Origin: a virus
Lineage: Duplodnaviria; Heunggongvirae; Uroviricota; Caudoviricetes
Length of the DNA: 35,494 nucleotides
Reading direction: 5' to 3' (one strand)
IMG/VR virus record: IMGVR_UViG_2531839180_000004
Location: 1-35,494 of that record
Shown here: positions 711 through 26,951 of the stretch, one piece after another
Layout: each line of letters opens with the position of its first letter
Numbering within the stretch: position 1 is the first letter of the stretch
Translations under genes and position numbers: made by a program
Notes under the pieces: generated by a model
Seen by the model: the letters and a program-made list of their open reading frames with translations, nothing else
Told to the model about the DNA's origin: nothing
Database searches by the model: none

Positions 711-2147
711 ATGAGCACACATGAAATAGCTAGCACACAAGCACAAGGGCAACTCGTATCAACAGATTTCAATCGATTCGAGCAATTTTTGGAGTCGCTT
801 GGATTACCAAAAGAAAATGTTCTTGCTTCAACGATGGAGCGTCAGGTTGTCCAAACAAACTTTCCTCAGTTTGTGATGGCGTTACCAGAAGACGTTAAGC
901 GTGACTCTAGATATTTGTCCAAATTTGCAGCAGCAAGTGCTATTGGTTTGTTTGATGCTGCCTTGAATTATGTCTGGAACGAAGTTGTACTTAACTTACG
1001 AAGAAAGACAGTTATTTATGGTTTGGAACTTTTTTTTGATGCTGCCGTTGGTGGTAAACATAGAGATCTATTTAGTACTGAAAGTGACTTAAGTGGTATT
1101 AAAGATAAAGTTCTTCTTGATAATTGCGCTAAATTAGAATTGATCTCCGACTCAATTTATAAAAAACTCACCCATATTTTAATTATGCGCAATGATCTTG
1201 GTGCCAGTCATCCTAATGATGCGAAAATCAATGCTTATGAACTGATGGGGTGGTTGCAAACATGTGTTCAAGAAGTTATCAATGACACACCTTCAGAGGC
1301 TGCACTGCAAGTTAAGGCTTTTGTTGAGAATCTGCGAAATCAAACTGAAGTCATCAGTAGCTCTAGTTTGCAGCATATGAAAAATGGGCTCAAACAGCTA
1401 CACACAAGAAATTGTGATAATGTCCTTCAGACAATCTTCGGTATGTATATTGGTGCTGGTGCAAATAACATCCTTAAGAAAAATATATCTGAAATTGCTC
1501 CAACAGTTTGGGAATGTGCAGATAATAATATTAAATATAAACTAGGTGTTGCGCTTGATGGTTATCGAACCAACTTGCACAATGATAAATTTTTAGCAGG
1601 TAACGAGTTTTTCGAATTTTGCTCTGGTAATAAATTTAAAACCCTTGAGGCTAGGGTTATTCTGCTTGATGAATATCTGGATGATTTAAGTTCTGCTCAC
1701 AGCGGTTGGGATAATTTCTATAATGAAGTTCCTCATGCTAGGAAAATGTTAAGTTACATTTCCAATGAATCGGATATTCCTAATGAACGTAAAGAAAAAT
1801 TAATTCGTATAATTCTATCGTGTCGTATTGGTAATGGTGTTTCTTATAACACTGGTGTTTCTCCTTTAGGCAAACCCATATACGATTCAATATTGAATAT
1901 GCTGGGCGATGATAATATCGTTCAAGTTATCATTGCATTCTATAATCAAGAGATTTACCACTTATTATCTAACAAAAACTGTAGAAAACATGCTGTGCAA
2001 ATTCTAACGGATATAAGAACTAATGTTGTTAGTGATAAGCTCAAGCAAATCTTAGATTATCTGATTGTAAATGGTGATACTTTGGAAAAAACTATGAAAA
2101 CCACTGAATTTAAAGCTCTAGCATCAAGTCATATAAAATTTAGTTAA
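711..2147 (+). CDS. hypothetical 478-aa cargo protein, AT-rich, orphan; possible HEPN-like abortive-infection protein
   Basis: Long intact ORF with ATG at 711. Markedly AT-rich compared with the flanking phage genes. No Walker or other enzymatic motif seen except RNDLGASH (R-x6-H). Inserted between ogr and D, which are adjacent in P2. Confidence 0.8.
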   Translation: MSTHEIASTQAQGQLVSTDFNRFEQFLESLGLPKENVLASTMERQVVQTNFPQFVMALPEDVKRDSRYLSKFAAASAIGLFDAALNYVWNEVVLNLRRKTVIYGLELFFDAAVGGKHRDLFSTESDLSGIKDKVLLDNCAKLELISDSIYKKLTHILIMRNDLGASHPNDAKINAYELMGWLQTCVQEVINDTPSEAALQVKAFVENLRNQTEVISSSSLQHMKNGLKQLHTRNCDNVLQTIFGMYIGAGANNILKKNISEIAPTVWECADNNIKYKLGVALDGYRTNLHNDKFLAGNEFFEFCSGNKFKTLEARVILLDEYLDDLSSAHSGWDNFYNEVPHARKMLSYISNESDIPNERKEKLIRIILSCRIGNGVSYNTGVSPLGKPIYDSILNMLGDDNIVQVIIAFYNQEIYHLLSNKNCRKHAVQILTDIRTNVVSDKLKQILDYLIVNGDTLEKTMKTTEFKALASSHIKFS

Positions 2148-2330: not shown

Positions 2331-3440
2331 TCATTCTGTTTCTGCTATCCATTCCGGGATTTTTGCCTCAAGCTCAAGCTGCGTGGTAAAGCCGCTGTTA
2401 TCAATGGTGTGCTCAGCTTTTGCAATAATCCAGTCCTGATTATCAATCTCGCTTTTAAATCCTGTTACCGTGCCATGCATTTCGGGGTAGAGTTCTGCGC
2501 GTCCGCGTGCCAGTGTGATGGAGAATGATGCGGCTCCGCGTTGTAGCTGCTGCCACTTTGCCGCCGCTGCGCGTCTTGCTGCCTGCTCGTTCTGATAAGT
2601 CTTGCGTAACACAAACACATTGCCTTCCGCGCCTTCCATATAATCACCTTCACGGCTGCTGCTTTTCTCCTTTTTGGGTTTTGGCGGTTTACGGCGTTTC
2701 ACGCTGACTTTTTTCTTTTTCCCGTAATTAAGATCAAGCCAGTAGGCGCGTACCCCCGTATACGCCTCGCGGTCAGCAATGCGGAACTGATGGCGATCGC
2801 CGCTGCTGCGTGTAATGGCGAACGAGGGTAACGGCTGACCCTGTGCGTTCACGCCACCGCCGGGCATGATGAATAACAGATTGCCGCTTTTTACCGTGGC
2901 GATTGCGCCCAGCATTTCCGCCATGCGCGTAAGGAAGGACATGTCGCTTTCTTCGGTCTGGTCGGCGTGGTCGATTTCGATATCCATCAGCATTTCGCTG
3001 ATTTGCGGTTTCAGACCATACCGATGAGCGATGGCGGATACCACACGCTCAACGGTCACATCATGCCAGGACACCTCACGTTTAACGTTAAATTCATCCC
3101 GAAAATCTGCGCTTCTGGCTGAAACAGTCAGCCTGTCCGGCGGTCCTTCGTGAGCGATTTCATCAACAATGTAAGTGCCTTTTTCTGTCAGCGGTTCTCC
3201 TTTCCAGCCAATGAGAACCGTCAGGCGCGCGCCCCGTGGCGGTAGCTGCAACTGACCATCCGCATCATCCAGCGTGATGGTGAGCTGGTCCGCCTCAAAT
3301 CCCCGGTTGTCGGTCAGTGACAGGCTCATCAGGCGCTCTGCCACACCTGACAGCGTTTTACCCTCCGCGAGAATATCAAAATCCGGCATTTTCACGGGGT
3401 CTGTGCCCTGACTGAGCAATTGCATGGTGGTGTCGGTCAT
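2331..3440 (-). CDS. D: tail protein D (late control gene D family, baseplate hub/VgrG-like)
   Basis: 369 aa from the internal Met MTDTTMQLL, preceded by a GGGAGGGA Shine-Dalgarno. Size and sequence fit the Phage_GPD family; the ORF-track start at 3572 would leave only 25 bp to FI. Confidence 0.85.
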   Translation of the reverse strand: MTDTTMQLLSQGTDPVKMPDFDILAEGKTLSGVAERLMSLSLTDNRGFEADQLTITLDDADGQLQLPPRGARLTVLIGWKGEPLTEKGTYIVDEIAHEGPPDRLTVSARSADFRDEFNVKREVSWHDVTVERVVSAIAHRYGLKPQISEMLMDIEIDHADQTEESDMSFLTRMAEMLGAIATVKSGNLLFIMPGGGVNAQGQPLPSFAITRSSGDRHQFRIADREAYTGVRAYWLDLNYGKKKKVSVKRRKPPKPKKEKSSSREGDYMEGAEGNVFVLRKTYQNEQAARRAAAAKWQQLQRGAASFSITLARGRAELYPEMHGTVTGFKSEIDNQDWIIAKAEHTIDNSGFTTQLELEAKIPEWIAETE

Positions 3441-3496
3441 CTGCTCCCTCCCTGTGCGGCATGGTCGCATGTGCGTGCGGAGGGGGTTACTGCTTT

Positions 3497-3520
3497 TTGT
3501 TGTCGCCTGGTCGGGAGAAC
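3497..3520. promoter_or_regulatory. candidate late-promoter activator site (TTGTTGT-N12-AGAAC) in the D/FI divergent region
   Basis: Motif centred about 55-60 bp upstream of the expected FI transcript start. A near-identical motif occurs between O and P at 20405-20429. Confidence 0.3.
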
Positions 3521-3597
3521 GGCGCAGGGGTGAGATTACGCGCGTGGTGGGTGATGATTGTTGCCGAATCATTTAACGGATACAAGGGGCTGAAGCT

Positions 3598-4782
3598 ATG
3601 AGTGAAACTCGTTTTCATGGTGCCCGTGTTACGGAAAGTACCGACCTGGTAACAGCGATTAATGATGTTGATTCCAGTGTTATCGGTATCGTGGCAACGG
3701 CGGATGATGCGGATGCGGAGCTGTTCCCGCTGAACAAGCCCACACTGCTGACCCGCGTCAATGACGTGCTGGGAAAATGCGGAACAACGGGGACGCTTTA
3801 TCGTGCGCTTAAGGCCATCGCAGACCAGGTGAGCACAAAGGTGATCGTCGTTCGCGTGGCTGAACACAAAGAAGAAGACGGAAAAACGCAGGATCAACTG
3901 GTTATCGGTGGTTCTGAATCTGACGGCAGCTATACGGGGATGTATGCGCTGCTTGTTGCAGAGCAGGATGAAAGCATCGGATACCGTCCGCGTATTCTGG
4001 CCGCGCCGGAGCTGGACACGGAGGCGGTAACAAAATCCCTGTGCGTGATTGCGGGTAAACTGCGCGCGTTTGTCTATGCCTCATGTCACGGCTGTAACAC
4101 GATGGCTGAGGCGATTACCTACCGCCAGAAATTCAACGAACGTGAGGTGATGCTCTTATGGCCGGACTTCATCGCCTACAACCCGAAAAGTGGCAAAAAC
4201 GAAACGTTCCCCGCGCCTGCCTATGCGTGCGGCCTTCGTGCGTACATTGACCATGAGCAGGGCTGGCACAAATCGCTGTCCAACGTTCCGGTTAAAAATG
4301 TGCTGGGGATGTCCAGGCATGTGTTCTGGTCGTTGCAGGCCGAAGACAGTGATGCCAACAGCCTCAACAACAAAGAAATCACGACCATTATTCGTCGCAA
4401 CGGGTTCCGCTTCTGGGGCAACCGCACACCGGAAACGAACGCCTACATCTTTGAGGTGTATACCCGAACCGCACAGGTGCTGGCTGATTCAATTGCGGAA
4501 GCGCAGTTTGAAACCATCGACAGTCCACTGACGCCTGCGAACGTGAAAGATGTTATCAGTGCCATCAGGGCAAAACTGGATTCACTGGTTACTGCCGGGA
4601 AACTGATTGGGGCGTCGTGCTGGTATGACGTGGTGGATAACGGCACCACGAATTTACGTCAGGGGCGCGTGCGTATTCGCTACAAATATACGCCTGTTCC
4701 CCCGCTGGAAGACATGGAGCTTTACCAGTCGTTTACTGATGAATTCTTTGGTCCCGCATTTGCGGTGCTGGGAGGTGCCTGA
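3598..4782 (+). CDS. FI: tail sheath protein FI
   Basis: 394 aa; FPLNKP, RPRILA, WPDF, GWHK and RRNGFRFWGNRT blocks align with P2 FI. Confidence 0.95.
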   Translation: MSETRFHGARVTESTDLVTAINDVDSSVIGIVATADDADAELFPLNKPTLLTRVNDVLGKCGTTGTLYRALKAIADQVSTKVIVVRVAEHKEEDGKTQDQLVIGGSESDGSYTGMYALLVAEQDESIGYRPRILAAPELDTEAVTKSLCVIAGKLRAFVYASCHGCNTMAEAITYRQKFNEREVMLLWPDFIAYNPKSGKNETFPAPAYACGLRAYIDHEQGWHKSLSNVPVKNVLGMSRHVFWSLQAEDSDANSLNNKEITTIIRRNGFRFWGNRTPETNAYIFEVYTRTAQVLADSIAEAQFETIDSPLTPANVKDVISAIRAKLDSLVTAGKLIGASCWYDVVDNGTTNLRQGRVRIRYKYTPVPPLEDMELYQSFTDEFFGPAFAVLGGA

Positions 4783-5294
4783 TGGCTGTACCAAAACATC
4801 TTCGCTTTTTTACGCTGTTTGTGGATGGTGAAAACGAAGTGGGTAAGGTGACGTCCGTCACTCTGCCTAAGCTGACGCGCAAAACCGACAGCTACCGGGG
4901 TGGTGGCATGATGGGTGCGGTAAGTATTGATCTCGGTCTGGACGACTCCGCGCTTGATGCGAGCTTTGTCATGGGGGGCGCAGTTCGTGAGCTGTTCCTT
5001 AAGTATGGCGGCACGATTGACGGCACGCTGCTGCGTTTTGCGGGTGAATACTACACCGATGCAGAAAGCGACCTGTATGAAGTCGAAATGCGCGGACGTG
5101 TGACGGAAATTGATATGGGGGAAGCCAAACAGGGCGAAGCCACATCACACACTTACGCCATTAAAAACACCTACTACAAGCTGAGTGTTAACGATCGCCC
5201 GTTGTGGGAGATTGACCTGCTGAACTTCATTTACCGGAAGGACGGCAAGGACATTGTGCCCGATCGCATCCGTTCCGCGCTCGGGCTTGGCTGA
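4782..5294 (+). CDS. FII: tail tube protein FII
   Basis: 170 aa; VTLPKLTRKTDSYRGGGM closely matches P2 FII. The start overlaps the FI stop. Confidence 0.95.
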   Translation: MAVPKHLRFFTLFVDGENEVGKVTSVTLPKLTRKTDSYRGGGMMGAVSIDLGLDDSALDASFVMGGAVRELFLKYGGTIDGTLLRFAGEYYTDAESDLYEVEMRGRVTEIDMGEAKQGEATSHTYAIKNTYYKLSVNDRPLWEIDLLNFIYRKDGKDIVPDRIRSALGLG

Positions 5295-5348
5295 TAAGTA
5301 ATATGCAGGCGGCGCAGTGCGTCGCCTCTGACTGAAAGGAGTTTCCTG

Positions 5349-5714
5349 ATGAAAGAGACGAAAAACATCGATACCGAAAACACGGTAGTTACTGACACTG
5401 TGAAAGAAACCAGTGAGCGTGGCGTAAAACTTACCCAACCAATTGAGCGAGGCGGCGAAAAAATCACGTATGTGGAGATCACCGGGGCTATTGAGCAGGC
5501 TGGATCTCTGCGAGATTTGTCGCTGTCTGATGTGCTGAATCTGAAAGCGGAATCCATGTTTACGCTGCTGTCACGCGTGACATCACCGCGACTGGATGAA
5601 GTGACAATCAAAAAAATGGCATCCCGTGACTTTATTCAGTTATGTGCGGTTGCCGTAAATTTTTTGAGCGGTGCGGACTCTGGCGGGAAGAACGAACAGG
5701 CGACGGAAGCCTGA
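5349..5714 (+). CDS. E: tail assembly chaperone E
   Basis: 121 aa; C-terminal part aligns with P2 E and ends ...AVAVNFLS just after the slippery site. Confidence 0.85.
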   Translation: MKETKNIDTENTVVTDTVKETSERGVKLTQPIERGGEKITYVEITGAIEQAGSLRDLSLSDVLNLKAESMFTLLSRVTSPRLDEVTIKKMASRDFIQLCAVAVNFLSGADSGGKNEQATEA

Positions 5715-5878
5715 TCACGGTTGTGTGCTTTGAGCACATAGAAGACTTTGTGGCGGATATTGCCGCCATTTTTAACTGGTCGCCCGCCGAAATCTTCATG
5801 ATGACGCCCGGCGAAGTGGTTAGCTGGCGTGAGCGGGCGGCACTTCGCAGCGGGAATGCAGACAATGAAGACTCTTGA
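5349..5878 (+). CDS. E': E+E' tail chaperone fusion made by programmed -1 ribosomal frameshift (slip site near 5658-5667)
   Basis: AAATTTTTTG slippery run near the 3' end of E. The -1 frame continues as FFERCGLW...FNWSPAEIFMMTPGEVVSW, typical of E'. ORF-track frame 5642..5878 is -1 relative to E. Confidence 0.7.
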
Positions 5879-8672
5879 TATCCGGGTCGCTTTCAGCGCC
5901 GTTGACAGGCTGACCCGGCCTGCCGAAAACGCCCGCCGCCTGATGGGGCAGTTTGGTGACTCCATCCAGCGAACGCAGGGGGCGATCAAAAATCTCGAGC
6001 GTCAGGCGCGATCATTTGAGCGCGCCCGCGACGCTGTCAGTAAAGCGGATGCGGGTATCGTGAAAGCACGACGCCAGCTTAACGCCCTTAATCAGTTACA
6101 ACGCACGGGTACAGTGCTCAGCGAAAAACAACAAAAGCTGATGCAGCAGTTAAGCAACCGGCTTGAACGCCTGAATGAATCGCGCACACGGGAAATTCAG
6201 AAAATGCGGGAGCTTGGCGGAGAACTGAAACGCCACGGCATTTCCCTGACAGGCAGCGATAGCACCATCCAGCAGGCCATCAGACGCACCGAACAGTACA
6301 ACAACCAGCTTGAACGCGAACGGCAGGCGCTTGCGCGTGTAACACGTGCGCGTGAGCGGTATTCGCGCGCGCAGGAAACCGCGGGAAAACTGAAAACAGG
6401 TGGTGCGCTGGCAATTGGTGCGGCAGCGGCTGGCAGCTATGCTGCCGGGCGTTTTTTGCAGCCTGCGATCGGGTTCGGGAAAGAGATGTCCCGCGTTCAG
6501 GCACTGACGCGAATCGACCAGAACAGCCCGCAGTTTAAGGCGCTGCGTGAACAGGCGTTAAAACTTGGCTCTGAAACGCAGTTCACTGCAGGCGAGGCCG
6601 CCAGTGGGCAGGCATTTCTTGCAATGGCTGGCTTCACACCGCAGGCCATTCAGGCTGCGCTTCCCGGCGTGCTGAGCATGGCAACGGCTGGCGGTATGGA
6701 TCTCGGCGAGACGGCGGATATTGGCTCAAATATCCTGACGCAGTTCGGCCTTTCTGCTGACCAGATGGACCGGGTCGGTGACACACTCACCGCAGCGTTT
6801 ACTCGTACCAACACTGACCTTCGCGCACTGGGCGAAACCATGAAATATGCAGGTCCGGTGGCGGGTAAGCTGGGAATATCGCTGGAGCAGGCCGCAGCGA
6901 TGGCGGGCGTGCTGGCGAATATGGGTATCAGGGGGAGTGATGCTGGTACGGCAATGCGTGCCAGCCTGGCTCGTCTGGCATCACCGCCAAAGGCGGCAGC
7001 AGAGGCGCTGAAAGAGCTTGGCGTGTCTGTCTCGGATGCTGGGGGCAAAATGCGCCCGATGGAGGATGTGCTGGCTGACCTTTATAAAGCTACCCGCAAA
7101 TACGGGGAAGTTGACCGGGTATCGTTCTTTAAGGACATTGCCGGAGAAGAGGCTTTCACATCATTTATGGCCCTCGTTGATGCGGCAGGTGACGGCTCCT
7201 TACCCAAACTGAGAAAAGAACTTGAAGGCGCGCGCGGTGAGGCTGAACGCACGGCAAAGGTTATGGCCAACAACCTTGACGGCGATCTGAAATCACTCAG
7301 CAGTGCATGGGAAGGGTTGCGCATCCGCATTGCAGATCTGATTGACGGTCCGCTGCGTTCTGTCACGCAGTGGCTCACGCGTGTGGTATCAAAGGTGACG
7401 GCGCTGGCGCAGGCCCATCCCGCACTGACGCGCCAGCTACTGATTGCAGGCGGTGCACTGCTGGCAATGACTGCAACGGTTGGCTCGTTGTCGCTGGCTA
7501 TTGGTGTGCTTGCTGGCCCGCTGGCAAAACTGCGTCTTGGTTTTTCCCTCCTGACCGGATCAATGAATGCTGTCAGGGTTCTGCCAGCACTATGGGGAAT
7601 GGTGACGGGTTCCGTTTCTTTACTGGGAGGCGCTATCGGGGCGTTGTTCAGTCCGGTTGGTCTTATCGTGGCTGCGCTTGCCGGAGCTGCCGTTCTTATC
7701 TGGAAATACTGGGATCCCATCAGGGCATTTTTTGCCGGGGTGTTCAGCGGGATTATGGAAAGGCTGACCCCGTTGCGCGAAACCTTTGAACGGTTTGGTC
7801 CTGTTTTTGACGCAATCGGGAGTGGGATCAGCCAGGTGTTTAACTGGTTTAAATCGCTGCTGTCACCGATGGAGTCCAGCAAGGAAACTCTGGATAAATG
7901 TACCAGTGCTGGCGAGATATTCGGTAACGTTCTTGGCGGTGCGTTACAACTTGTTCTGACACCTGCAAAAATGTTGCTGGATACGCTGGCGTGGATACTT
8001 GAAAAGCTTGGTGTGCTTCCGGATGAAGCGGAAAGGGCGCGCAAGAAAATCGAAGACGCACAGCGTGCGGCCATTCTTCAGGACAAGGTTGCCTTGCTTC
8101 AGGGGGACCTGGCGAAAATCAATCCGCCGAAGCCTGTGGAAAATGGCAATGGCACCGGAGGTGATAACCCCAAAGACAATAAACCGCTCACAGATAGCAA
8201 TACCGGTACGCTGCGCAGACTCAGCAAAATTGCTGATAACACAGGTAAGCTGGTTGAGGAGACGAAAAAACGCATTGGCCCCGGCGATATTGTCTTTAAA
8301 AACCTGCCCCGAGCACTTGCTGTTCGTGGGGAGTGGCAGGAGCGGAAGATTGCGCAGGTCAGTAAGCCTGCCCCCGCAATTAATATCACACCCGTGGTCC
8401 CGGCTCCGCTGCCTCCGGCGCTGGTCCCTGTTGTTGCGGCCAGCTCCCGCCCGGTGGCGGAGGCTATACGATCGCCAGTGGCATCAGTTCCTGTAACTTC
8501 CCGTAACCGCGAGCCTGTTGCCTCCGGATTTGGTGGTGAAATTCATGTTCATCTGCATAACGTTGTTACGCAGAATCCCCGCGAACTGGCGAAACTGGTC
8601 GGTGAAATGGTCAGGGCAGAAATGGAACGGCGCGCCCGTGCCGGGCGTGGCAGTTTTTACGATAAAGATTGA
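5865..8672 (+). CDS. T: tail tape measure protein T
   Basis: Long Ala/Gly-rich protein with coiled-coil N-terminus and hydrophobic central segments, in the T position after E'. Start at MKTLDIRV chosen for its weak GGGAA Shine-Dalgarno (ORF track starts at 5829). Confidence 0.9.
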   Translation: MKTLDIRVAFSAVDRLTRPAENARRLMGQFGDSIQRTQGAIKNLERQARSFERARDAVSKADAGIVKARRQLNALNQLQRTGTVLSEKQQKLMQQLSNRLERLNESRTREIQKMRELGGELKRHGISLTGSDSTIQQAIRRTEQYNNQLERERQALARVTRARERYSRAQETAGKLKTGGALAIGAAAAGSYAAGRFLQPAIGFGKEMSRVQALTRIDQNSPQFKALREQALKLGSETQFTAGEAASGQAFLAMAGFTPQAIQAALPGVLSMATAGGMDLGETADIGSNILTQFGLSADQMDRVGDTLTAAFTRTNTDLRALGETMKYAGPVAGKLGISLEQAAAMAGVLANMGIRGSDAGTAMRASLARLASPPKAAAEALKELGVSVSDAGGKMRPMEDVLADLYKATRKYGEVDRVSFFKDIAGEEAFTSFMALVDAAGDGSLPKLRKELEGARGEAERTAKVMANNLDGDLKSLSSAWEGLRIRIADLIDGPLRSVTQWLTRVVSKVTALAQAHPALTRQLLIAGGALLAMTATVGSLSLAIGVLAGPLAKLRLGFSLLTGSMNAVRVLPALWGMVTGSVSLLGGAIGALFSPVGLIVAALAGAAVLIWKYWDPIRAFFAGVFSGIMERLTPLRETFERFGPVFDAIGSGISQVFNWFKSLLSPMESSKETLDKCTSAGEIFGNVLGGALQLVLTPAKMLLDTLAWILEKLGVLPDEAERARKKIEDAQRAAILQDKVALLQGDLAKINPPKPVENGNGTGGDNPKDNKPLTDSNTGTLRRLSKIADNTGKLVEETKKRIGPGDIVFKNLPRALAVRGEWQERKIAQVSKPAPAINITPVVPAPLPPALVPVVAASSRPVAEAIRSPVASVPVTSRNREPVASGFGGEIHVHLHNVVTQNPRELAKLVGEMVRAEMERRARAGRGSFYDKD

Positions 8673-8678
8673 GGAGTC

Positions 8679-9173
8679 ATGGCCATGATGATGATCTACG
8701 GCATGTTTGTTTTTGAGCTGCGCACGCTGCCGCATCAGCAGTTACAGCAAAACAAAAGCTGGCGGCATGTGAAAAATGAACGCGTTAACCGTTCAGCAAG
8801 CTGGCAGTATATCGGTGCAGGTGATGATCGCATCGTTCTTTCTGGTGTGCTTTATCCTGAAATTACAGGTGGCGAAGTGTCGCTGTCGCTGCTGACCACG
8901 CAGGCGTATACAGGACGACCCTGGCCTTTGATTGATGGCGTCGGGCAGATTTACGGTATGTATGTCCTGACCGGAACGAATACGACCCGTTCCGAGTTTG
9001 ATCGCTACGGTAAGGCGAAAAAGATAGAATTTTCACTGACCCTTGAACGCTGTGATGAGGATTTGCGGGAGCGCCTGCAATCCTCATCGTTCAGCGATAT
9101 GCTGTCCGGCTTCAAAGATAAGGTGACATCATCCCTTAACAGCGCGGCCAGTTCAGTAAAAGGGTTGTTCTGA
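8679..9173 (+). CDS. U: tail protein U
   Basis: MMMIYGMFVFELRTLPHQQLQQNKSWRH and PEITGGE...YTGRPWPLIDG align with P2 U. Confidence 0.9.
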   Translation: MAMMMIYGMFVFELRTLPHQQLQQNKSWRHVKNERVNRSASWQYIGAGDDRIVLSGVLYPEITGGEVSLSLLTTQAYTGRPWPLIDGVGQIYGMYVLTGTNTTRSEFDRYGKAKKIEFSLTLERCDEDLRERLQSSSFSDMLSGFKDKVTSSLNSAASSVKGLF

Positions 9174-9180
9174 TTTAACA

Positions 9181-9220
9181 CAAAAACCGCTAATGGTCAG
9201 ATTAGCGGTTTTCTTTTTCC
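9181..9220. terminator. bidirectional intrinsic terminator between U and the invertase remnant
   Basis: AACCGCTAAT-GGTCAG-ATTAGCGGTT perfect stem flanked by an A-run upstream and TTTCTTTTT downstream. Confidence 0.55.
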
Positions 9221-9396
9221 TTAGTCTTCTCAATTGTTTCTTCAGTCTGTATATCGCCTACAGGGTGATAACGATAAATCGTCGATATACTGATACCGTA
9301 AATTATTGCCAGTTGTTTTCTGTCATGACCGTTTTTAATAAGCCTTGCTATTTGAATGTTCACCCAAGGAATGCCTCCCTTAAGAAAGGGGGGCAA
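9202..9396 (-). pseudogene. remnant of a Gin/Hin/Cin/Pin-family DNA invertase (C-terminal HTH only)
   Basis: 64-aa ORF ...LIKNGHDRKQLAIIYGISISTIYRYHP resembles the C-terminal DNA-binding helix-turn-helix of serine invertases; the N-terminal catalytic domain is absent. Confidence 0.65.
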
Positions 9397-9409
9397 CCTT
9401 ACCTACAAA

Positions 9410-12007
9410 TCAGTATTTATAATAACGTCCAGGCAGCACAGGAGAGTTAACATTCCAGAACCCCTGCGGATCGCATGCCAGTATCATCCAGGCTGTATTA
9501 CAGGAGGACGGCCACGGTGGCATATCATCATTATCGGGGTAGTCACACGAATCAATATAACCGTAGCGTGTGCGCAGTGGTGCCAGCCTCGCCAGAATAT
9601 CCATCGCGGTGGTATCATCTCCCAGTCTGCGGGCCAGCAATGCCACGCCTGCACTGCCCTCCACCCAGACTCCACGCTGTTTATTCGGGTAGCCATATTC
9701 CGGATGATAAGGCGTGTACCCTGTCGCATCGTGCGTGGCGTACCAGAGTCTGCCCAGGTAAGTAAAACACCGCCGGGCTTTTTCCATATCTATATTGGCC
9801 ACAAACAGCCCTCCCCAGCTCGCGCAGTCCAGCGGTGAGGCCTTGTCCACCCCGGTAGTCCGCATCCCGGCATAAAATCGTCCTTCGTCCTCCACCCACA
9901 GTTTTTCCATAATGGCATCCGCCAGGGCTTTCGCTTTTTCAGCATAGCCGGTGAAGCCCAACCGTCCCATCAGATCAAACAAAAACCACAGGTCGAACTG
10001 ATGTTCTGACGTGCACCAGTCTGCGTCAAAATCCGGATAAAACACACCATTCAGATACTGTCCGCTACCGGATGTATACAAACCAGAGCGAACATCACTG
10101 CCATCTGTGACCCTGAACATTTCAATCCATTCTGCGCACTGCATCAGTTTATCCCGGGCAACAACGGCCATTTCACCGTCCGGATATTTCAGCAGATAAT
10201 ACGCCAGCGCATACGCCACCCACGCTGCGTTTCCCGTCCGGTAATACTGCGATGATGTTTGTGCTGACATACGGTTCACAAAAAAAGGCACGCTTCCCTC
10301 ACTGCCTCCGCTGCCCACAATCGCACACAACCCGCGAACAAAACGCTCAACCTGACTGTGCCCCTGCGCCATCAGGGCAATGGCCGACACAGCCTGGTCG
10401 TAAGTGTACGTACGGTCTTTCATCACCCTTACCGTTTCGTCTCCGGCATCCGATGGCACCCGGTAAGAGCGGATACACAGCGGGTCTTCCCAGACAGTTA
10501 CCAGACCGTTATTTGATGTACGATACAGTTTAAAAGACTTGGCCCCCGGCCAGCTTCTGGCGAAACTGAACGTGCCGTCACTCTCTAATACTACAGAGGA
10601 AAACTGATATTCCAGAGTTGTGCTGGCACACAGCGCAATGGTGTAGCTCTGCGGATCACCGATACTGCACTGACCTGTGACCGGACCGGTATAGTCCGTT
10701 GTCAGCTCTTCATTTACCGTCAGCGTAACGGATTTGTTGTACACATCAGGGGCATTCAGCGATAAAAGTTCCGCTGTGCAGGTTTCCGCCAGTGTGTAAA
10801 AATTTTCCACCCGGCTGTTGCGTTCGCAGGTTGTGATCTGCGAGTGAAATTTATCAATTATTTCCGTTAATCGAAGGTAATCTAGAACATCCTCAGCACT
10901 GGTCTTACTAATAATTTCACGTCCAACACTTGTTAATGCAGTTAATGCGGCACGATTTGCCCCTGTAAAATAAGGGAGTTTATCTGCTGATGTAGCAAGC
11001 TCCGCCAGCGCCGTCAGGGTGGCATCCTTCGGTTGCTTACCCGCAAGCGCGTCAATCACGGTGGTTGCAAAATTAGGGTCATTGCCCAGCGCCGCAGCCA
11101 GTTCGTTCAGCGTGTTCAGTGCATCAGGTGACGAATCTACAAGTGCGGCAATCGCGGCCATAACGAAAGCTGTGCTTGCGATCTGGGCATTATTAGTCCC
11201 CTGTGGCGCTGTTGGTGTTGTTGGCGTTCCGGTCAGTGCCGGGCTGTTTAATGGTGCTTTCTTGTTCGTTTCATCCATTACCACCTTGACAGCTTTTGGT
11301 GTCGCTGCCAGCGTTTCAGACGTGCTGTTCGTGGCGCTACTGAGCTGAACAATCCCTTTTTGTGTAGTGGTGGCGTTCTGGGCGGTATATTTCCCGTTAG
11401 CCAGGTCATATGCAGCCTTAACCGCTTTCGGTGTTGCGGCCAGTGTTTCTGATTCACTGTTAATTGCACTGCTTAACTGAGTAAAACCTTTTACGGTCAG
11501 CGAGGCGTCCGGGTGACGTCGTGACTGTTCGTGCTCTGATATTTTATCATCCACATATTTGCGGGTTGCCAGAACCACAGACGGGTCGATTTTCAGCGTG
11601 ATGGCTTCAGTGTTCGTGACAACCAGAATCATTCGGATAGTCTGGGTGCGTCCACTGCCTTCCTGCAACTGCGGTTTGTACGTTTCCGGGCAGTTTGCCA
11701 CCGCAATGAGTACACCTTCATCATCATAAAGACCAATCTCACGGATCCAGAATCCTCCCTCGTTTTCAGGGATGATTTGCTCCGCAATAATCTGGCTCTG
11801 ATTGTTAGGGTCAACACTCAGAAGATTCAGCGGTGCAATGCGTTTCTGGTTAATCAGTTTTGTTTGTGCAGGGTCTGGTGTTGGTAACACACCATTTGCA
11901 TCACCAACGGCCATTTGCGTCAGATTCAGCTTACTGCCGAGCATCGTCGCGTTAGCCAGTCGTGCCGCGCCCTGATTAGTCAGAATGGCGTAGTATTTCA
12001 CTGTCAT
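9410..12007 (-). CDS. H: tail fibre protein H with P2-like N-terminus, two fibre repeats and a divergent C-terminal domain of about 435 aa
   Basis: N-terminus MTVKYYAILTNQGAARLANA is P2 H-like, followed by two SETLAATPKAVK repeats. The C-terminal half is aromatic/Asp-rich and cysteine-containing, unlike P2 H. No G (fibre assembly) gene follows. Confidence 0.9.
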   Translation of the reverse strand: MTVKYYAILTNQGAARLANATMLGSKLNLTQMAVGDANGVLPTPDPAQTKLINQKRIAPLNLLSVDPNNQSQIIAEQIIPENEGGFWIREIGLYDDEGVLIAVANCPETYKPQLQEGSGRTQTIRMILVVTNTEAITLKIDPSVVLATRKYVDDKISEHEQSRRHPDASLTVKGFTQLSSAINSESETLAATPKAVKAAYDLANGKYTAQNATTTQKGIVQLSSATNSTSETLAATPKAVKVVMDETNKKAPLNSPALTGTPTTPTAPQGTNNAQIASTAFVMAAIAALVDSSPDALNTLNELAAALGNDPNFATTVIDALAGKQPKDATLTALAELATSADKLPYFTGANRAALTALTSVGREIISKTSAEDVLDYLRLTEIIDKFHSQITTCERNSRVENFYTLAETCTAELLSLNAPDVYNKSVTLTVNEELTTDYTGPVTGQCSIGDPQSYTIALCASTTLEYQFSSVVLESDGTFSFARSWPGAKSFKLYRTSNNGLVTVWEDPLCIRSYRVPSDAGDETVRVMKDRTYTYDQAVSAIALMAQGHSQVERFVRGLCAIVGSGGSEGSVPFFVNRMSAQTSSQYYRTGNAAWVAYALAYYLLKYPDGEMAVVARDKLMQCAEWIEMFRVTDGSDVRSGLYTSGSGQYLNGVFYPDFDADWCTSEHQFDLWFLFDLMGRLGFTGYAEKAKALADAIMEKLWVEDEGRFYAGMRTTGVDKASPLDCASWGGLFVANIDMEKARRCFTYLGRLWYATHDATGYTPYHPEYGYPNKQRGVWVEGSAGVALLARRLGDDTTAMDILARLAPLRTRYGYIDSCDYPDNDDMPPWPSSCNTAWMILACDPQGFWNVNSPVLPGRYYKY

Positions 12008-12612
12008 GCGTTTACTCTCAGATTATCAATTAAATGAATGGCCGGGGCAGGGAAATAATCCCCTTCGGCAATAATGGACTCCGGGGTGTAGGGATAAACC
12101 GTCAGGGCATCGCCGTGATAGCATCCCGTACCAACGAAAATCTTTCCGTTCACACTCAGGCTGATCGCCAGCCCCGTCAGATGGCGACTTACTGGTTTTG
12201 CATCCGCAATAAGGCGCTCAAGTTCCTGATACATTTCATCGGTGATGCCCTGATCAAGTACTCCGACAACAATGCGAAATGTTCCTGGCTCCTCGTTGAG
12301 TTGCCACCACTCCTTTACTTCAATCAGGTAGCCGAGAGGCTCCACGGCTCTTCGCAGTGCGCTGATGGTTCCCTTGTGTCGGTGTATCAGCCATGCATCA
12401 CGAATCACCTGTCGTTTTGTCTCTTCCGGCCAGTTGCGATCCCAGCGGTCAACGGAAAATGCCCAGGCGAGATAAGGCAGCAGATGCACCGGGCAGGTAT
12501 CCGGCGACCACAGCGTGTTGAGGTCTACCGGAATGTCTGTAATGCGTGTTCCGACGGCTTCGGCACAACGCATGAAACTGCTGGCTGATGGCGGTAACAG
12601 TGAATTACTCAT
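12004..12612 (-). CDS. I: baseplate assembly protein I
   Basis: From the internal Met MSNSLLPP; LWSPDTCPVHLLPYLAWAFSVDRWD aligns with P2 I. Confidence 0.9.
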   Translation of the reverse strand: MSNSLLPPSASSFMRCAEAVGTRITDIPVDLNTLWSPDTCPVHLLPYLAWAFSVDRWDRNWPEETKRQVIRDAWLIHRHKGTISALRRAVEPLGYLIEVKEWWQLNEEPGTFRIVVGVLDQGITDEMYQELERLIADAKPVSRHLTGLAISLSVNGKIFVGTGCYHGDALTVYPYTPESIIAEGDYFPAPAIHLIDNLRVNA

Positions 12613-13501
12613 TGCGCCCACCTTCGCTGATGGTAAATGACTCACAGCGCGCCGCCTGTATGTCGCTGATGGCCATATTCTGTGTGGGTTCGATTATCTC
12701 TACGCGTTGCACGCCGTGCACATGAAGTGCGGCAGCAATGGCGGACAACGCCACGTCCTGACCGATAAGCCCCTGTTCAGCCAGCCACTTCCTGAATGAC
12801 GATTCCGCCGCAGCCAGAATAGGTTCGGATTCCGGGCCGGGATAAAAGTACAGTTTTGCCTTCAGCCGCCATGTCACGATTCTGGCGCTCTGTACCGTCA
12901 GGCGGTCGGCCACCGGGCGGGTATCCTCTGCATTCAGAACGGCGCGAACGGTATTAAGCAACGCCTCCGTTGCCGTGCCGTCGCCTTCAGTGGACAGGAT
13001 GGAAACCGTCACATTTGCCGGAGACGGACTGATAGCCCGCGCATCACGCACCAGACCGCTGGCGCTGCGGGCAAAATACTCGTATGCACCTGACGGGCCA
13101 GCAACACTCAGGCCGTCATACGCCCGCTGCGCCCGCAGTCTCAGCGAGGTGTCGCTCTCCATCACCGCGTCGGTGGTATCCGTTGCCGGAGTGATAACCA
13201 GGCGCTTTGTGTTCATATTGCCCGCGAGGTTGTCCAGGTTTGTCCCTGAACCGTGGCTTAACATGCAGGCGCGTGCGCCCTCGTTAACCCGCTGGCGTAA
13301 CAGCATTTCACGAAACGACATGGTTTGAGCGATAACGTTAAGGGGTTCCGATTCCAGCTCCAGCGCGGCGGAAACGGCTTCACGCTGTTCGGCGGGATAG
13401 GACGCAATCATCATGGCCTTTGTGTCAGCCAGAATTGCCTCAAAGTCAGGCTCCGCGATGATGGCGGGGTCCGGTAACTGTGAAAGGTCAACGGCAGGCA
13501 T
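12605..13501 (-). CDS. J: baseplate assembly protein J
   Basis: 298 aa; ESEPL, RQRVNE, GLSVAG, RPVADRLTVQSA and LHVHGVQRVE blocks align with P2 J. Confidence 0.95.
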   Translation of the reverse strand: MPAVDLSQLPDPAIIAEPDFEAILADTKAMMIASYPAEQREAVSAALELESEPLNVIAQTMSFREMLLRQRVNEGARACMLSHGSGTNLDNLAGNMNTKRLVITPATDTTDAVMESDTSLRLRAQRAYDGLSVAGPSGAYEYFARSASGLVRDARAISPSPANVTVSILSTEGDGTATEALLNTVRAVLNAEDTRPVADRLTVQSARIVTWRLKAKLYFYPGPESEPILAAAESSFRKWLAEQGLIGQDVALSAIAAALHVHGVQRVEIIEPTQNMAISDIQAARCESFTISEGGRNE

Positions 13502-13504
13502 GAT

Positions 13505-13855
13505 TTACTCCCTCAGCGTGATGGTTAATTCAACATTCTGCATGGTCTGCATGACAGTGCCCGACAGCGTCACCCCGGCGCGGCCTCCTGCCTTCCAGAC
13601 AACGTCGATAGCGTCCAGGGCAATGCGGGGTTCCCATCGTGTCAGCGCAATCACGGCAGCACTCATGCATTGCAGACGCGTGGTGTTATTCATGGGTTCG
13701 TCAATCAAATCAGGCACAAGGCTGCCATATTCCCGTCGCATAACCCGGCTTGCCAGCGGGGTGGTCAGGATGTCCCTGACTGACTGTTTCAGGTGCTCCA
13801 TATCGTTCAGGTTTCCCGTTCTGTCCGGGTTCATTCCTGTGTAGCGGGTTGTCAC
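13505..13855 (-). CDS. W: baseplate assembly protein W (gp25-like)
   Basis: 116 aa; MTTRYTGMN...VRDILTTPLASRVMRREYGS aligns with P2 W. Confidence 0.9.
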   Translation of the reverse strand: MTTRYTGMNPDRTGNLNDMEHLKQSVRDILTTPLASRVMRREYGSLVPDLIDEPMNNTTRLQCMSAAVIALTRWEPRIALDAIDVVWKAGGRAGVTLSGTVMQTMQNVELTITLRE

Positions 13856-14433
13856 TGCGGGCCTCCTGTCGAATCGCTGCCACCTTTAACGCCACCGTGT
13901 TTATGCGTATGCACTGTGATGCCGTTTGAGGTGAAATTGCCGCCGCTGTGCGTGATATTGCCGCTCATCTTTCCCCCTTTTGTGACGTCAAGCGTCGCCG
14001 TTCTCAGAAGGTCTGTGCATTCCACGACGGGCGTATCCAGTGTCACGCTGACGGATGCCTGCAGGGTGGCTGTTTTCATGCCGCTGGCGCTCAGTGCGCC
14101 TGCGTCCGCGTCGTAGCGGAACACCGCGCCATCCGGCGCGCTGACCACGATTTCTTTCAGGCTTTTGCCGGGGGCCGGAATGGCATCACTCCACAGGCTG
14201 CCAATTATCATGGCGGTTTCCGGGTTGCCGCCAATGCAGGCAATTACCACCTGTTCGCCGGGTGATGGCGGCAGCCACACATTGAAGGCTCCCGCGCGCG
14301 TGGTGTTCCAGCGCAGCCAGCCTGTTTCCAGTTCGCCGCTGCGAACGCGCACGCACCAGGATTCCTCATCAACTTCAGAGATGATCCCGGTACGGATGAT
14401 GTTGCTCAGCAGCCGCATGAGTTCTGCGCTCAC
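13852..14433 (-). CDS. V: baseplate spike protein V
   Basis: 193 aa with a Gly-rich C-terminus, in the V position, P2 V-like. Confidence 0.9.
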   Translation of the reverse strand: MSAELMRLLSNIIRTGIISEVDEESWCVRVRSGELETGWLRWNTTRAGAFNVWLPPSPGEQVVIACIGGNPETAMIIGSLWSDAIPAPGKSLKEIVVSAPDGAVFRYDADAGALSASGMKTATLQASVSVTLDTPVVECTDLLRTATLDVTKGGKMSGNITHSGGNFTSNGITVHTHKHGGVKGGSDSTGGPQ

Positions 14434-18424: not shown

Positions 18425-19476
18425 TTAGCTGTCGGCGAACTTCAGGCCAGTGACCATCGCGCACTTGCCATAGTCTTCAACGACATAAGCGTCATTGATG
18501 GACTGGTAGGTGGCGATGCGGTTGTATTCCGGCTCGTCTTTCATCAGGCGACGCATTGTTCCTTTCTGCCAGTAAATCGACAGGTTGTTGAACGAGGTGA
18601 TCAGCATCGTTGAATCCGGGAAGAACGGCGCAAGGAATACATCCAGTCCGCCAATGGCGCGCGATGACAGGATGAGCTGTCCGGCAAGTAATTCCGCATT
18701 GGGATTCTGGCCGCTGATGCTGTTCAGCACGGGCAGACGCAGCGAGTTAAACAGGTTGCGCCCCATAATCACCACGAGGTCGTCAGCTTCCTTGTGCCAT
18801 TCATCCAGCAGGGATGAGCGCGCGTCCTGTACCAGTGCATCAGCGTTCGCATACTTACCCGCGTGCGCCACGGTGTTGTCCATGTTGCGGGAGGTCAGCG
18901 TCACGTCATTCATTACGCGCTCGCTGGCGTCGGTTCTGATGTGCTCCAGCCATCCCACGTTAACGTCCTGAAGCAGCTTGTTGGTGCTGAAGTTGGACTC
19001 ATCTGCGTGAGACGTGCCGTTGAAACCGATCATGATGCGGTCAAGCGCCACCTGCCGGGCAATCTGTGTGCTGACGCGTGACTGAAAATCAGGGTGTGCC
19101 GCCCAGGCATCAAGCTGCGGATACGAAATAAACGTGTCGTAGTTCACCTGTTCGCACTGATATTTGCGGTTTTTCAGATCAACCACGTTATTCGGGTTAC
19201 GGCGTTTTGTGCCGTCATAACTGGTATTCGTGCGCGCAATCGGCCCGGTGGTGTCCAGGAGGATTTTTTCGCCTTTCTGGTCGGTCACACCGAACACGTT
19301 AATTTTTTTGTAAATTCAGTGCTCTCCTTTACTGCGTTTTCAAAACGCTGCTGCACCGAGGGTTCCACGGTAAATCGCGATACCAGTGCAGATACCGGGA
19401 TGTTGTTAAGCGACGCCTGCTGCGCCATATAGCAACCCAGCTTGTTGCGGGTAATATCTGACATCACCAGATTCAT
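18425..19476 (-). pseudogene. N: major capsid protein N, interrupted by a frameshift in a homopolymer run
   Basis: N-terminal 63 aa (19285..19476, ...FTVEPSVQQRFENAVKESTEF) and the remaining 290 aa (18425..19297, ...VTDQKGEKI) both align with P2 N but lie in different frames. The junction is an A7 run on the coding strand. Confidence 0.85.
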
Positions 19477-25025: not shown

Positions 25026-25027
25026 TT

Positions 25028-25991: not shown

Positions 25992-26951
25992 TTACTCCTT
26001 GTCCATTGCGTACAAACCATTGACCAGAGCAAACTGTGGCACCCCGTCCGCGATGAAAGTCGCATTAACTCCGCAGGCTTCGCGGATAGCGGGTGCCACA
26101 ATCTCCGCCCCTCCACCGACAACCATCACCCGCCCGTAACCCGAAAAACCCGCCAGCGCGCGGATCACTCGTTGTTTCAGTGTTTCTTCCTTTTCACGAA
26201 TAACCGCCATCAGGCTGTCGTAATGCGCGTCATTGTGGATGTGCTGGCGCAGCCAGGCTTCATCATGGCGATGTTCGATAATGGTATTGGCGATGTGGTG
26301 ACTGGTGCGCATACCGTTAGTGGCCATCACCGACAGTACGGCATCGGCCATCAGAGAAACGCCTACGTGTGGATCGCAAAACACCTGGCTGATACCTGCC
26401 AGTTACCCCTGAACCTTTGCCACATCCAGCGTGGTTCCGCCCAAATCCACAATCAGCAGGGATTCAAACGGACTCATGTCAGCCAGTGCCTTAAAGCCAG
26501 CCGGAATGGATTCAGGCATAACCCGCACGTTACGGATAGTGAATGCTTCGCCGTTCTGGTACTCCACCGGGCGCATAACGTTCGCTTTTTTGCGGTTGAT
26601 GTTGGCCATGTCCGGCTGTGCGTTTGTGTCGAAATACTCGCTCAGTGGCAGGGTGACAACCACATCCACCTCCTGTGGCGTGATGCCTGATTTGACCAGC
26701 GCGTGATGAATGGCAATGACATTCACATCGCTGTATTGGTATTGCGTGTCGGTCGTCTGGACAAAGCGATCGCTGACCGGATCAAAACCATAGCGCACGC
26801 CATCAAGCATGTAGTTCGCGGGCTGCGTGCCACCGAACGGCGCAGACCATTCCGACTTGAAGCTGTTCGGGCTGATGGCGTTGCGGCGTTCGCCGTTCTC
26901 AGTCCATGCCAGCTTGATGTTGGTGGAGCCGTCGTCGATACAAATTTTCAT
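25992..26951 (-). pseudogene. ParM/StbA-like actin-type segregation ATPase interrupted by one in-frame stop codon
   Basis: MKICIDDGSTNIKLAW...DLGGTTLD...VMVVGGGAE is colinear with plasmid R1 ParM. ORFs 26403..26951 and 25992..26384 are in the same frame, separated by a single TAA and six sense codons. Confidence 0.8.

What the first reader, a model, noticed from the sequence alone, without database searches (positions are those of the whole stretch)
9410..10720. Tail fibre H carries a large non-P2 C-terminal domain and lacks a G chaperone gene
Seen in sequence: after the P2-like N-terminus and two fibre repeats, the C-terminal 435 aa or so is rich in Trp/Tyr/Asp/Gly with blocks such as YDQAVSAIALMAQG, TGNAAWVAYALAYY and WVEGSAGVALLARRLG. 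No tail-fibre assembly gene G follows; only 14 bp separate H from the invertase fragment. Inference: receptor-binding module swap. The composition suggests an alpha-rich, possibly glycoside-hydrolase-like (alpha/alpha-barrel) domain, which could mean a polysaccharide-degrading or self-folding fibre tip. That fold assignment is a guess from motif feel, not a search.
Basis: inference. Interest (0 to 1): 0.55.

Follow-up and report, generated by a model that had tools for sequence, protein, structure and literature searches.

The report
Enzyme-like barrel tip on P2-type fibre
A P2-family prophage of E. coli has swapped the tip of its tail fibre, together with the fibre chaperone gene and host-range switch, for a mobile sugar-cleaving-enzyme-like (alpha/alpha)6 barrel module that several unrelated phage types also carry, a rare and untested kind of phage receptor-binding tip.

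Summary
H (9410-12007, minus strand, 865 aa) is P2/Gemsvirus-like to about aa 378-387. The rest, about 475 aa rather than 435, is foreign. No G/Tfa homologue exists in the window. A dead invertase remnant (last 47 of 196 aa) follows H.

The family has no Pfam, NCBIfam or PDB sequence match. It spans 510 clusters at 50% identity. Fifteen residues, including D537, E668, H669, D672, D727 and E783, are conserved in at least 91% of 125 diverse members (12 of them in at least 97%). All sit at the N-terminal ends of alternate helices.

The same module (50-94% identity) ends tail proteins with four other N-terminal anchors. Three genomic contexts were examined, and none has a chaperone gene downstream.

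The best reading is a self-folding, probably hydrolytic, glycan-binding tip that replaced the Hv-Tfa-Tfa'-Hv'-invertase cassette. Catalysis and substrate are inferred, not shown. I rate it a new member of a known but rare kind (alpha/alpha-toroid depolymerase-like receptor-binding proteins).

The parts
9410..12007 (-). Tail fibre gene H, 865 aa, intact ORF (stop codon at 9410-9412)
   Evidence: ORF list. PHROG 7032 'tail fiber protein' matches the full length. Identical to WP_000217024.1 'phage tail protein' in E. coli E275 a.
10874..12007 (-). Resident P2/Gemsvirus-type part of H (aa 1-378): collar domain PF12571 (aa 1-150), two PF03406 fibre repeats, then shaft
   Evidence: Pfam. 70% aa identity to P2 gpH aa 1-387. 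97% nt identity to the H remnant of E. coli E89; 98% nt identity to Escherichia phage 500465-2 over 11543-12700 (N-terminal third of H plus gene I).
10837..10873 (-). Left recombination joint (aa about 379-390, 'RLTEIIDKFHSQ'). It matches neither the recipient nor the donor DNA.
   Evidence: blastn boundaries. Sequence read.
10442..10864 (-). Start of the mobile module (aa 382-522): neck helices and a beta-sandwich of about 80 aa
   Evidence: AF2 model residues 1-141, strands at 47-125. The conserved module begins at 'ERNSRVENF' (aa 395) in all homologues. dN/dS 0.39 against the siphovirus-type copy.
9470..10441 (-). (alpha/alpha)6 barrel (aa 523-846). Conserved pocket residues: Y536, D537, R590, G592, E668, H669, D672, D721, L726, D727, W731, W781, E783, G784, W840.
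9413..9469 (-). Short C-terminal tail (aa 847-865, '...FWNVNSPVLPGRYYKY'). No further domain follows. The last 13 codons differ from the donor-type copies.
   Evidence: The model ends with one short strand. Alignment A1. DNA similarity to L002 stops at 9450.
9355..9409 (-). Right joint: 55 nt without a match to Gemsvirus-type or donor-type DNA, lying between the H stop and the invertase remnant
   Evidence: blastn boundaries. Sequence read.
9202..9354 (-). Remnant of a Gin/Hin-type DNA invertase gene: only the C-terminal HTH, the last 47 of 196 aa. The catalytic serine domain is absent.
   Evidence: Pfam HTH_7, E 4e-9. 95% nt identity to the 3' end of the invertase gene of phage 500465-2 and of the E89 recombinase gene. 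PGAP calls it a pseudogene missing its N-terminus.
9183..9212 (.). Hairpin flanked by A and T runs, between the convergent U and H/invertase-remnant transcription units. Likely a bidirectional terminator.
   Evidence: Terminator scan. Sequence.

Best explanation
**What it is.** The prophage is a Gemsvirus-type member of the P2 family. In its relatives, H is followed by an invertible host-range cassette: Hv, Tfa, an inverted Tfa' and Hv', then a serine invertase.

**What happened (shown).** One recombination event replaced everything from H codon about 380 to three quarters of the way into the invertase gene. The incoming piece is a 1.5-kb mobile receptor-binding module.

**The module (shown by prediction).** It consists of a short neck, a beta-sandwich and an (alpha/alpha)6 barrel of the six-hairpin glycosidase type. 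GH15 enzymes and the endo-mannanase MmpH are its closest structural neighbours.

**How it likely works (inferred).**
- Each trimeric fibre carries three globular barrels at its tip.
- The barrel pocket is lined by the family's near-invariant Asp, Glu, His, Arg, Tyr and Trp residues. It binds a surface polysaccharide of the host (O-antigen, capsule or another exopolysaccharide) and probably cleaves it by acid/base hydrolysis. E783 and E668, D672 or D537 are the candidate catalytic residues.
- Cleavage would let the baseplate reach the outer membrane.
- Because the tip is a compact globular enzyme fold rather than an interdigitated beta-fibre tip, it folds without a Tfa/G chaperone. That is why G could be lost.
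- The phage thereby traded a two-state invertible host range for one fixed specificity.
For: **Anatomy and junctions.**
- define the ORF, its domains and both recombination joints.
- The reference arrangement H-Tfa-(Tfa'-Hv')-invertase-U is annotated in Escherichia phage 500465-2.

**Fold.**
- AF2 gives pLDDT 94.4 and pTM 0.93 from a 60-sequence alignment reaching down to 24% identity.
- Foldseek gives the same superfamily.

**Signs of an active site.**
- Y536, D537, G592, E668, H669, D672, L726, D727, W731, E783, G784 and W840 are conserved in at least 97% of 125 sequences drawn from clusters at 50% identity or less.
- All lie at the N-terminal ends of alternate helices of the model. From general knowledge of the fold, that is where six-hairpin enzymes build their pocket.
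- MmpH uses an Asp near the first helix pair and a Glu near the C-terminal helices (PMC9883506). That is the same order as D537 and E783.

**Purifying selection.** dN/dS between the P2-type and siphovirus-type copies is 0.13 in the barrel.

**Mobility and independence from a chaperone.**
- The module ends a 636-aa PF18668 spike that is the last prophage gene beside potB.
- It ends a 608-aa PF08400 fibre that is the last gene of a prophage beside the Usp/porin/PFOR genes.
- It ends a 673-aa spike followed directly by lysis genes.
- In none of these is there a Tfa gene downstream.

**Use on other tail devices.** Distant members are fused to a gp5-type puncturing spike, T7-type nozzle proteins, a baseplate hub and a Glucodextranase-B domain. 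That suits an enzyme domain used on phage tails.
Against: - No activity data exist for any member that I could find.
- Sequence searches give no significant link to any GH family. Pfam and NCBIfam return nothing. A PDB profile search gives E of at least 0.1.
- Structural neighbours include non-hydrolytic enzymes: AGE-family epimerases and isomerases, linalool dehydratase and terpene cyclases.
- I could not superpose the model on GH15 or MmpH to check that the conserved carboxylates sit at catalytic positions.
- Trimer assembly of a 240-aa P2-type shaft without G is assumed, not shown.
- The carriers whose serotype I found differ: O45:H16 (abstract of PMC7285328) and O8:H2. No single O-antigen target is evident.
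- In this window the major capsid gene carries a frameshift. This particular prophage copy may therefore not make virions.
Confidence: 0.62

Rival explanations
1. The barrel is a non-catalytic, lectin-like receptor-binding domain. It uses the old enzyme pocket only to bind a sugar epitope, such as the LPS core or an O-antigen, and cleaves nothing.
For: - No sequence link to a catalytic GH family.
- P2-type fibres normally only bind (general knowledge).
- Six-hairpin folds also occur in non-hydrolytic proteins.
Against: Two Glu, four Asp, one His and one Arg are conserved in at least 91% of sequences that share only about 25-30% identity. That is more typical of catalysis than of binding alone. 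The module also sits in the tailspike position of a podovirus-like prophage, a position usually held by enzymes (general knowledge).
Confidence: 0.2
2. The domain is an enzyme with different chemistry: a polysaccharide lyase or an unsaturated-uronyl hydrolase, epimerase or isomerase-type activity, rather than an inverting GH15-like hydrolase.
For: - The conserved His, Arg and Tyr (H669, R590, Y536) would suit proton abstraction.
Against: - Epimerases act on free sugars, which is implausible for a fibre tip (inference).
Confidence: 0.1
3. The fusion is a by-product of prophage decay. An illegitimate deletion or insertion destroyed the invertase, G and the fibre tip, and the H chimera does not assemble into working fibres.
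For: - The invertase is reduced to 47 aa.
- Only 8 of 5426 complete E. coli genomes carry this H.
- The capsid gene N is frameshifted and parM is split in the window.
- An internally deleted variant of the same H exists (P0053).
Against: - The joint is in frame, and H is intact and 98-100% identical in all 8 genomes, which come from humans, sheep, a pig and food.
- The barrel is under purifying selection.
- The same module works without a downstream chaperone gene in three other phage backbones.
- The N frameshift lies in a T-run and is absent from E275 a. It may be strain-specific or a sequencing error.
Confidence: 0.08

Closest known systems
Bacteriophage P2 gpH / gpG tail fibre and chaperone pair (Peduoviridae)
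   Same: Same operon position after gpI. The N-terminal collar domain, fibre repeats and shaft are shared: 70% aa identity over aa 1-387.
   Different: The C-terminal receptor-binding tip is unrelated. No G gene follows. The tip is a globular alpha-helical barrel instead of a chaperone-dependent fibre tip.
Gemsvirus-type Peduoviridae (Escherichia phage 500465-2) with an invertible Hv/Tfa cassette and DNA invertase
   Same: 98% nt identity over gene I and the N-terminal third of H (window 11543-12700), and 95% over U and the 3' end of the invertase gene. The F operon (ending in U) converges on H in the same way.
   Different: Hv, both Tfa genes, Hv' and 149 of 196 invertase codons are gone, replaced by the barrel module. 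No gix/hix-like core is left.
GH15 glycoside hydrolases (glucoamylase, glucodextranase, dextran dextrinase; clan GH-L) and MmpH endo-alpha-1,4-mannanase
   Different: Only 10-16% identity. No Pfam GH15 hit, and a PDB profile search gives E of at least 0.1. The domain is attached to a virion fibre. Substrate and mechanism are unknown.
Phage polysaccharide depolymerases of the rare 'alpha/alpha toroid' fold class (DepoScope; Klebsiella prophage survey)
   Same: A receptor-binding protein with a polysaccharide-degrading-type toroid fold. The class was reported as about 1% of phage depolymerase candidates: 11 of 984, and 29 among several thousand prophage domains (PMC11326577; PMC12491483).
   Different: Those assignments are computational, and I do not know whether they belong to the same sequence family. 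I found no experimentally characterised member. Here the module sits on a P2-type contractile-tail fibre.
Classical beta-helix tailspikes (P22 gp9, HK620, CBA120 TSPs)
   Same: Exchangeable N-terminal anchor plus an enzymatic C-terminal module. No separate chaperone gene. The 673-aa and 636-aa relatives occupy the tailspike position.
   Different: The fold is an alpha-helical barrel, not a right-handed beta-helix. There is no C-terminal trimerisation domain.

Membership tests
P2 gpH-type tail fibre | N-terminal tail-collar fibre domain (PF12571) and fibre repeats (PF03406) | tested here: met
   PF12571 E 4e-62 over aa 1-150. PF03406 E 1e-40, two stretches.
P2 gpH-type tail fibre | Encoded directly after baseplate genes V-W-J-I | tested here: met
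   ORF order 13852-14433 (V), 13505-13855 (W), 12605-13501 (J), 12004-12645 (I), then H. PGAP names in E275 a agree.
P2 gpH-type tail fibre | P2-type C-terminal tip with a downstream Tfa/G chaperone gene | tested here: not met
   P2 H similarity stops at aa 387. The best P2 G tblastn hit has E 6.3. No Caudo_TAP appears in the window ORFs tested or in the PGAP annotation.
Six-hairpin (alpha/alpha)6 glycosidase superfamily | Barrel of six inner and six outer helices | tested here: met
Six-hairpin (alpha/alpha)6 glycosidase superfamily | Conserved acidic and aromatic pocket at the N-terminal ends of the inner helices | tested here: inconclusive
   The near-invariant residues map to the starts of alternate helices.
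CAZy family GH15 (clan GH-L) | Sequence membership (Pfam Glyco_hydro_15 or significant similarity to GH15 enzymes) | tested here: not met
   No Pfam hit at E up to 1. No NCBIfam hit. The profile search of PDB sequences found no GH15 protein. dbCAN/CAZy HMMs were not available.
CAZy family GH15 (clan GH-L) | Two catalytic Glu residues (general acid and base) at equivalent structural positions; inverting hydrolysis | not testable with these tools
   E668 and E783 are invariant. Residue-level superposition and enzymology were not possible.
Enzymatic tailspike / depolymerase receptor-binding protein | Modular build: exchangeable N-terminal virion anchor plus a C-terminal domain with a polysaccharide-degrading fold | tested here: met
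   The same module sits behind five different N-termini. Fold.
Enzymatic tailspike / depolymerase receptor-binding protein | Demonstrated cleavage of a host surface polysaccharide | not testable with these tools
   No experiment was possible. Literature searches found no characterised homologue.
Fibres or spikes with a C-terminal intramolecular chaperone (Peptidase_S74 type) | Auto-cleaved chaperone domain at the extreme C-terminus | tested here: not met
   No Pfam hit. The model ends 19 residues after the barrel.
Invertible tail-fibre host-range switch (Mu G, P1 C, Gemsvirus cassette) | Intact serine invertase, inverted crossover sites and an alternative Hv'/Tfa' set | tested here: not met
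   Only the last 47 of 196 invertase residues remain. No AAACCNNGGTTT-type core was found with up to one mismatch. No Tfa or Hv' genes are present.

The most novel reading that the evidence does not exclude
The module founds a still unclassified glycoside hydrolase family, structurally nearest GH15 and MmpH, with no Pfam, NCBIfam or PDB sequence link. Phages deploy it on very different tail devices: P2-type fibres, podovirus spikes, siphovirus spikes, gp5-type puncturing needles and T7-type nozzles. It folds and works as a monomeric unit on a trimeric stalk, which frees the fibre from Tfa chaperones. Its enterobacterial branch would then be a new class of O-antigen or exopolysaccharide depolymerase.
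Probability: 0.4. Interest if true: 0.65.

Novelty: new member of a known kind. Interest (0 to 1): 0.45.

Why it matters
- **Fold diversity.** Nearly all characterised phage depolymerases are beta-helices or beta-propellers. An alpha-helical barrel family that is frequent in metagenomes and prophages (510 clusters at 50% identity) but nearly absent from isolated phages (16 of 50,697 records) is a blind spot for host-range prediction tools and for enzyme discovery.
- **Engineering.** A receptor-binding module that moves between myo-, sipho- and podovirus backbones without a chaperone would be a convenient cassette for retargeting phages or tailocins.
- **Evolution of host range.** The locus records how a phage gives up an invertible two-state host range for one fixed specificity.

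Tried and rejected
1. **Sequence route to function.** Pfam, NCBIfam, phmmer and a profile search of PDB sequences gave nothing significant. A marginal hit (E 0.34) aligns the segment just after E783 with MmpH residues 264-336. The chain numbering offset is unknown, so I did not use it.
2. **Cryptic G.** tblastn with P2 G, Pfam scans of spare ORFs and the PGAP annotation were all negative. The antisense ORFs 9193-9450 and 9356-9838 on the plus strand have no support. The first was scanned with Pfam and gave no hit.
3. **Remaining inversion system.** No gix/hix-like core was found.
4. **Inverted F operon.** I first suspected that the F operon, which runs opposite to P2 (the stretch FII-E-T-U was checked), was a new inversion tied to the invertase. 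I rejected this because the isolated Gemsvirus phage 500465-2 has the same layout.
5. **Inferring the receptor from host serotypes.** The few carriers with a published serotype differ: O45:H16 (abstract of PMC7285328) and O8:H2. No conclusion is possible.
6. **Literature on characterised alpha/alpha-toroid tail proteins.** I found only computational mentions.
7. **Viral structure library.** Only six matches at E 0.001 or better, none of them annotated as a tail protein.
Full report
**What is there**

The window is a P2-family prophage of E. coli. Its tail region is 98-100% identical to prophages in eight complete E. coli genomes.

Gene H is the ORF 9410..12007 on the minus strand and encodes 865 aa. 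Pfam recognises the tail-collar fibre N-terminal domain (PF12571, aa 1-150) and two fibre repeats (PF03406). It recognises nothing in the last 436 aa. NCBIfam and a phmmer search of PDB sequences are also empty.

P2 gpH aligns only to aa 1-387, at 70% identity. P2 gpG has no counterpart anywhere in the window. Pfam scans of the remaining unassigned ORFs show no Caudo_TAP domain. PGAP annotation of the near-identical tail region in strain E275 a lists no tail fibre assembly protein.

The C-terminal part is enriched in Trp, Tyr, Gly and Asp. The foreign part begins at about aa 379-395, not 430. The spacing to the next ORF is 13 nt, and real invertase homology starts 55 nt after the H stop.

**How the locus arose**

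The closest isolated phage backbone is Escherichia phage 500465-2 (Peduoviridae, Gemsvirus). There the order is I, H, Tfa, inverted Tfa', inverted Hv', DNA invertase, and then the convergent U and T genes.

Three window segments have matches elsewhere:
- Window 11543-12700 matches that phage at 98%, and 10874-12100 matches the H remnant of strain E89 at 97%.
- Window 8600-9354 matches U plus the last 141-153 nt of the invertase gene at 95%.
- Window 9450-10836 is 95% identical to the 3' end of a 636-aa 'tail fiber/spike' gene. That gene is the last gene of an unrelated siphovirus-type prophage next to potB in strain C012.

Short unmatched joints remain at 10837-10873 and 9355-9449.

So a 1.5-kb cassette replaced the variable part of H, both chaperone genes, the alternative tip and 149 of the 196 invertase codons. 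What is left of the invertase is its HTH (Pfam HTH_7). No gix/hix-type crossover core survives. A hairpin with flanking A and T runs at 9183-9212 probably terminates both convergent operons.

**What the module is**

I built a 60-sequence alignment reaching down to 24% identity. From it, AlphaFold2 gave a model of aa 382-865 with mean pLDDT 94.4 and pTM 0.93. The model has three parts:
- a short neck;
- a beta-sandwich at model residues 47-125;
- eleven to twelve long helices at model residues 142-465, forming an (alpha/alpha)6 barrel.

Only 19 residues follow the barrel, so there is no intramolecular chaperone domain.

The structure comparisons agree on the superfamily:
- Foldseek returns the same superfamily, led by a GH78 rhamnosidase whose beta-sandwich also aligns.

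No beta-helix, fibre-tip or knob fold appears.

**Is it likely to be an enzyme?**

An exhaustive HMMER search found 510 clusters (at 50% identity) with E up to 0.001. I aligned 125 of them to a family profile. Conservation was 97-100% at Y536, D537, G592, E668, H669, D672, L726, D727, W731, E783, G784 and W840. It was about 91-93% at R590, D721 and W781 (numbering checked).

Each of these residues sits at the N-terminal end of every second helix of the model.

In MmpH the proposed acid is an Asp near the first helix pair and the base is Glu262 near the C-terminal helices (PMC9883506). D537 and E783 occur in the same order.

Between the P2-type copy and the siphovirus-type copy, dN/dS is 0.13 in the barrel and 0.39 in the beta-sandwich. 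Distant members are fused to a T4 gp5-type needle, to T7-type nozzle proteins, to a baseplate hub and to a Glucodextranase-B domain. That fits an enzyme domain recruited to many tail devices.

Together this makes catalysis the better reading, but it remains an inference. Sequence methods give no significant link to any GH family: Pfam and NCBIfam found nothing, and the best PDB profile hits have E of at least 0.1. Non-hydrolytic six-hairpin proteins score almost as well in the structure searches.

**Mobility and the missing chaperone**

The module, starting at the conserved 'ERNSRVENF', ends proteins with at least five different N-termini:
- the P2-type H in this window;
- a 636-aa protein with the PF18668 spike anchor;
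- a 673-aa protein with an anchor shared by many 700-1000-aa tail spikes;
- 586-631-aa proteins with the PF08400 prophage fibre N-terminus;
- a 907-aa Salmonella protein.

In the three other contexts I examined, nothing resembling a Tfa lies downstream:
- The 636-aa gene is the last prophage gene.
- The 608-aa gene is the last gene of a prophage next to the Usp, porin and PFOR genes. The Caudo_TAP gene upstream of it belongs to the preceding fibre.
- The 673-aa gene is followed by holin and endolysin genes.

Loss of G in the window is therefore expected for this module rather than being a defect. How the 240-aa P2-type shaft trimerises without a C-terminal nucleating chaperone is not explained by my data.

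**Distribution and prior knowledge**

This allele of the module (above 85% nt identity) is in 24 of 5426 complete E. coli genomes, at 30 places. Four genomes carry two or three copies. E275 a, for example, holds both the P2-type H and a 673-aa spike.

The 54%-identical branch is much more common. One 608-aa protein is indexed in 445 blocks of the collection.

Among 50,697 phage records only 16 have a relative. The nearest are phiSTEC1575-Stx2k (52%) and the jumbo phage ph0011 (46%), followed by Microbacterium and Thermus phages. BFVD holds only six structural matches at E 0.001 or better.

PHROGs already contains the family as 'tail fiber protein' (phrog_7032, 13714, 4128). The 'alpha/alpha toroid' has been listed as a rare fold class, about 1% or less, among computationally detected phage depolymerases (PMC11326577, PMC12491483). 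A catalogue of 105 tested Klebsiella depolymerases describes only beta-helical enzymes. I found no experimentally characterised relative.

**Receptor**

The receptor is unknown. The published serotypes I could find for carriers differ: O45:H16 for the RM strains (abstract of PMC7285328) and O8:H2 for KS-NP019. No O-type association can be claimed.

**Verdict**

Hydrolysis and substrate are inferred.

This is a new member of a known but rare and uncharacterised kind. Its main value is as an entry point to what may be an unclassified glycosidase family on phage tails. I rate the interest at 0.45.

Noticed in passing
window 18425-19476 (indel at 19309): The major capsid gene N is split into two ORFs (19285..19476 and 18425..19297, minus strand). 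The cause is a 1-nt deletion in a T-run relative to strain E275 a. It is either a real pseudogene, which would make this prophage copy defective, or a homopolymer sequencing error.
   Followed up: partly
window 23826-25564: A low-GC (about 35%) two-gene cargo downstream of the portal gene Q (22242-23288). The first gene has an AAA_15 ATPase domain and the second an OLD-like TOPRIM domain. Their best PADLOC hits are AbiLi (E 1e-27) and AbiLii, so this is a probable AbiL-type anti-phage defence pair. E275 a carries different cargo at this position.
   Followed up: partly
window 25992-26951: The parM (plasmid segregation actin) gene is split into two ORFs, 26403..26951 and 25992..26384. This is a probable frameshift pseudogene. 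The gene is intact in E275 a.
   Followed up: partly
window 711-2147: A low-GC (about 35%) ORF of 478 aa lies just left of gene D (2331-3572), in the cargo position where E275 a carries a DUF3800 gene between ogr and D. It has no Pfam or PADLOC hit, so its function is unknown.
   Followed up: partly
window 2331-9173: FI, FII, E, T and U run on the plus strand, while D and V-W-J-I-H run on the minus strand, unlike P2. The F operon (its FII-E-T-U part was checked) converges on H in the same way in phage 500465-2 (Gemsvirus) and in strains E89 and E275 a. The layout is therefore typical of this lineage and not a new inversion. The D start lies only 25 nt from the FI start.
   Followed up: yes
P0053 (667 aa, Logan assembly): A variant of exactly this H protein has an internal in-frame deletion of about aa 318-515. 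It joins 'ALGNDP' directly to 'LCIRSY', removing the neck and the beta-sandwich but keeping the barrel.
   Followed up: no
P0132, P0134, P0157, P0153, P0140 (representative proteins): Distant homologues of the barrel (30-34% identity) are fused to other tail parts. These are T4 gp5 C-terminal needle repeats, T7-type nozzle proteins, a phiJL001 Gp84-type baseplate hub, and PASTA plus Glucodextranase-B domains.
   Followed up: partly
L005 4292-5092 versus window 2331-3572: Gene D (the baseplate hub, VgrG-like) is a full-length 413-aa ORF in the window. In E275 a it is annotated as only 267 aa, and nearby indels are visible at window 3507-3511. The two copies of the prophage thus carry different lesions.
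   Followed up: no
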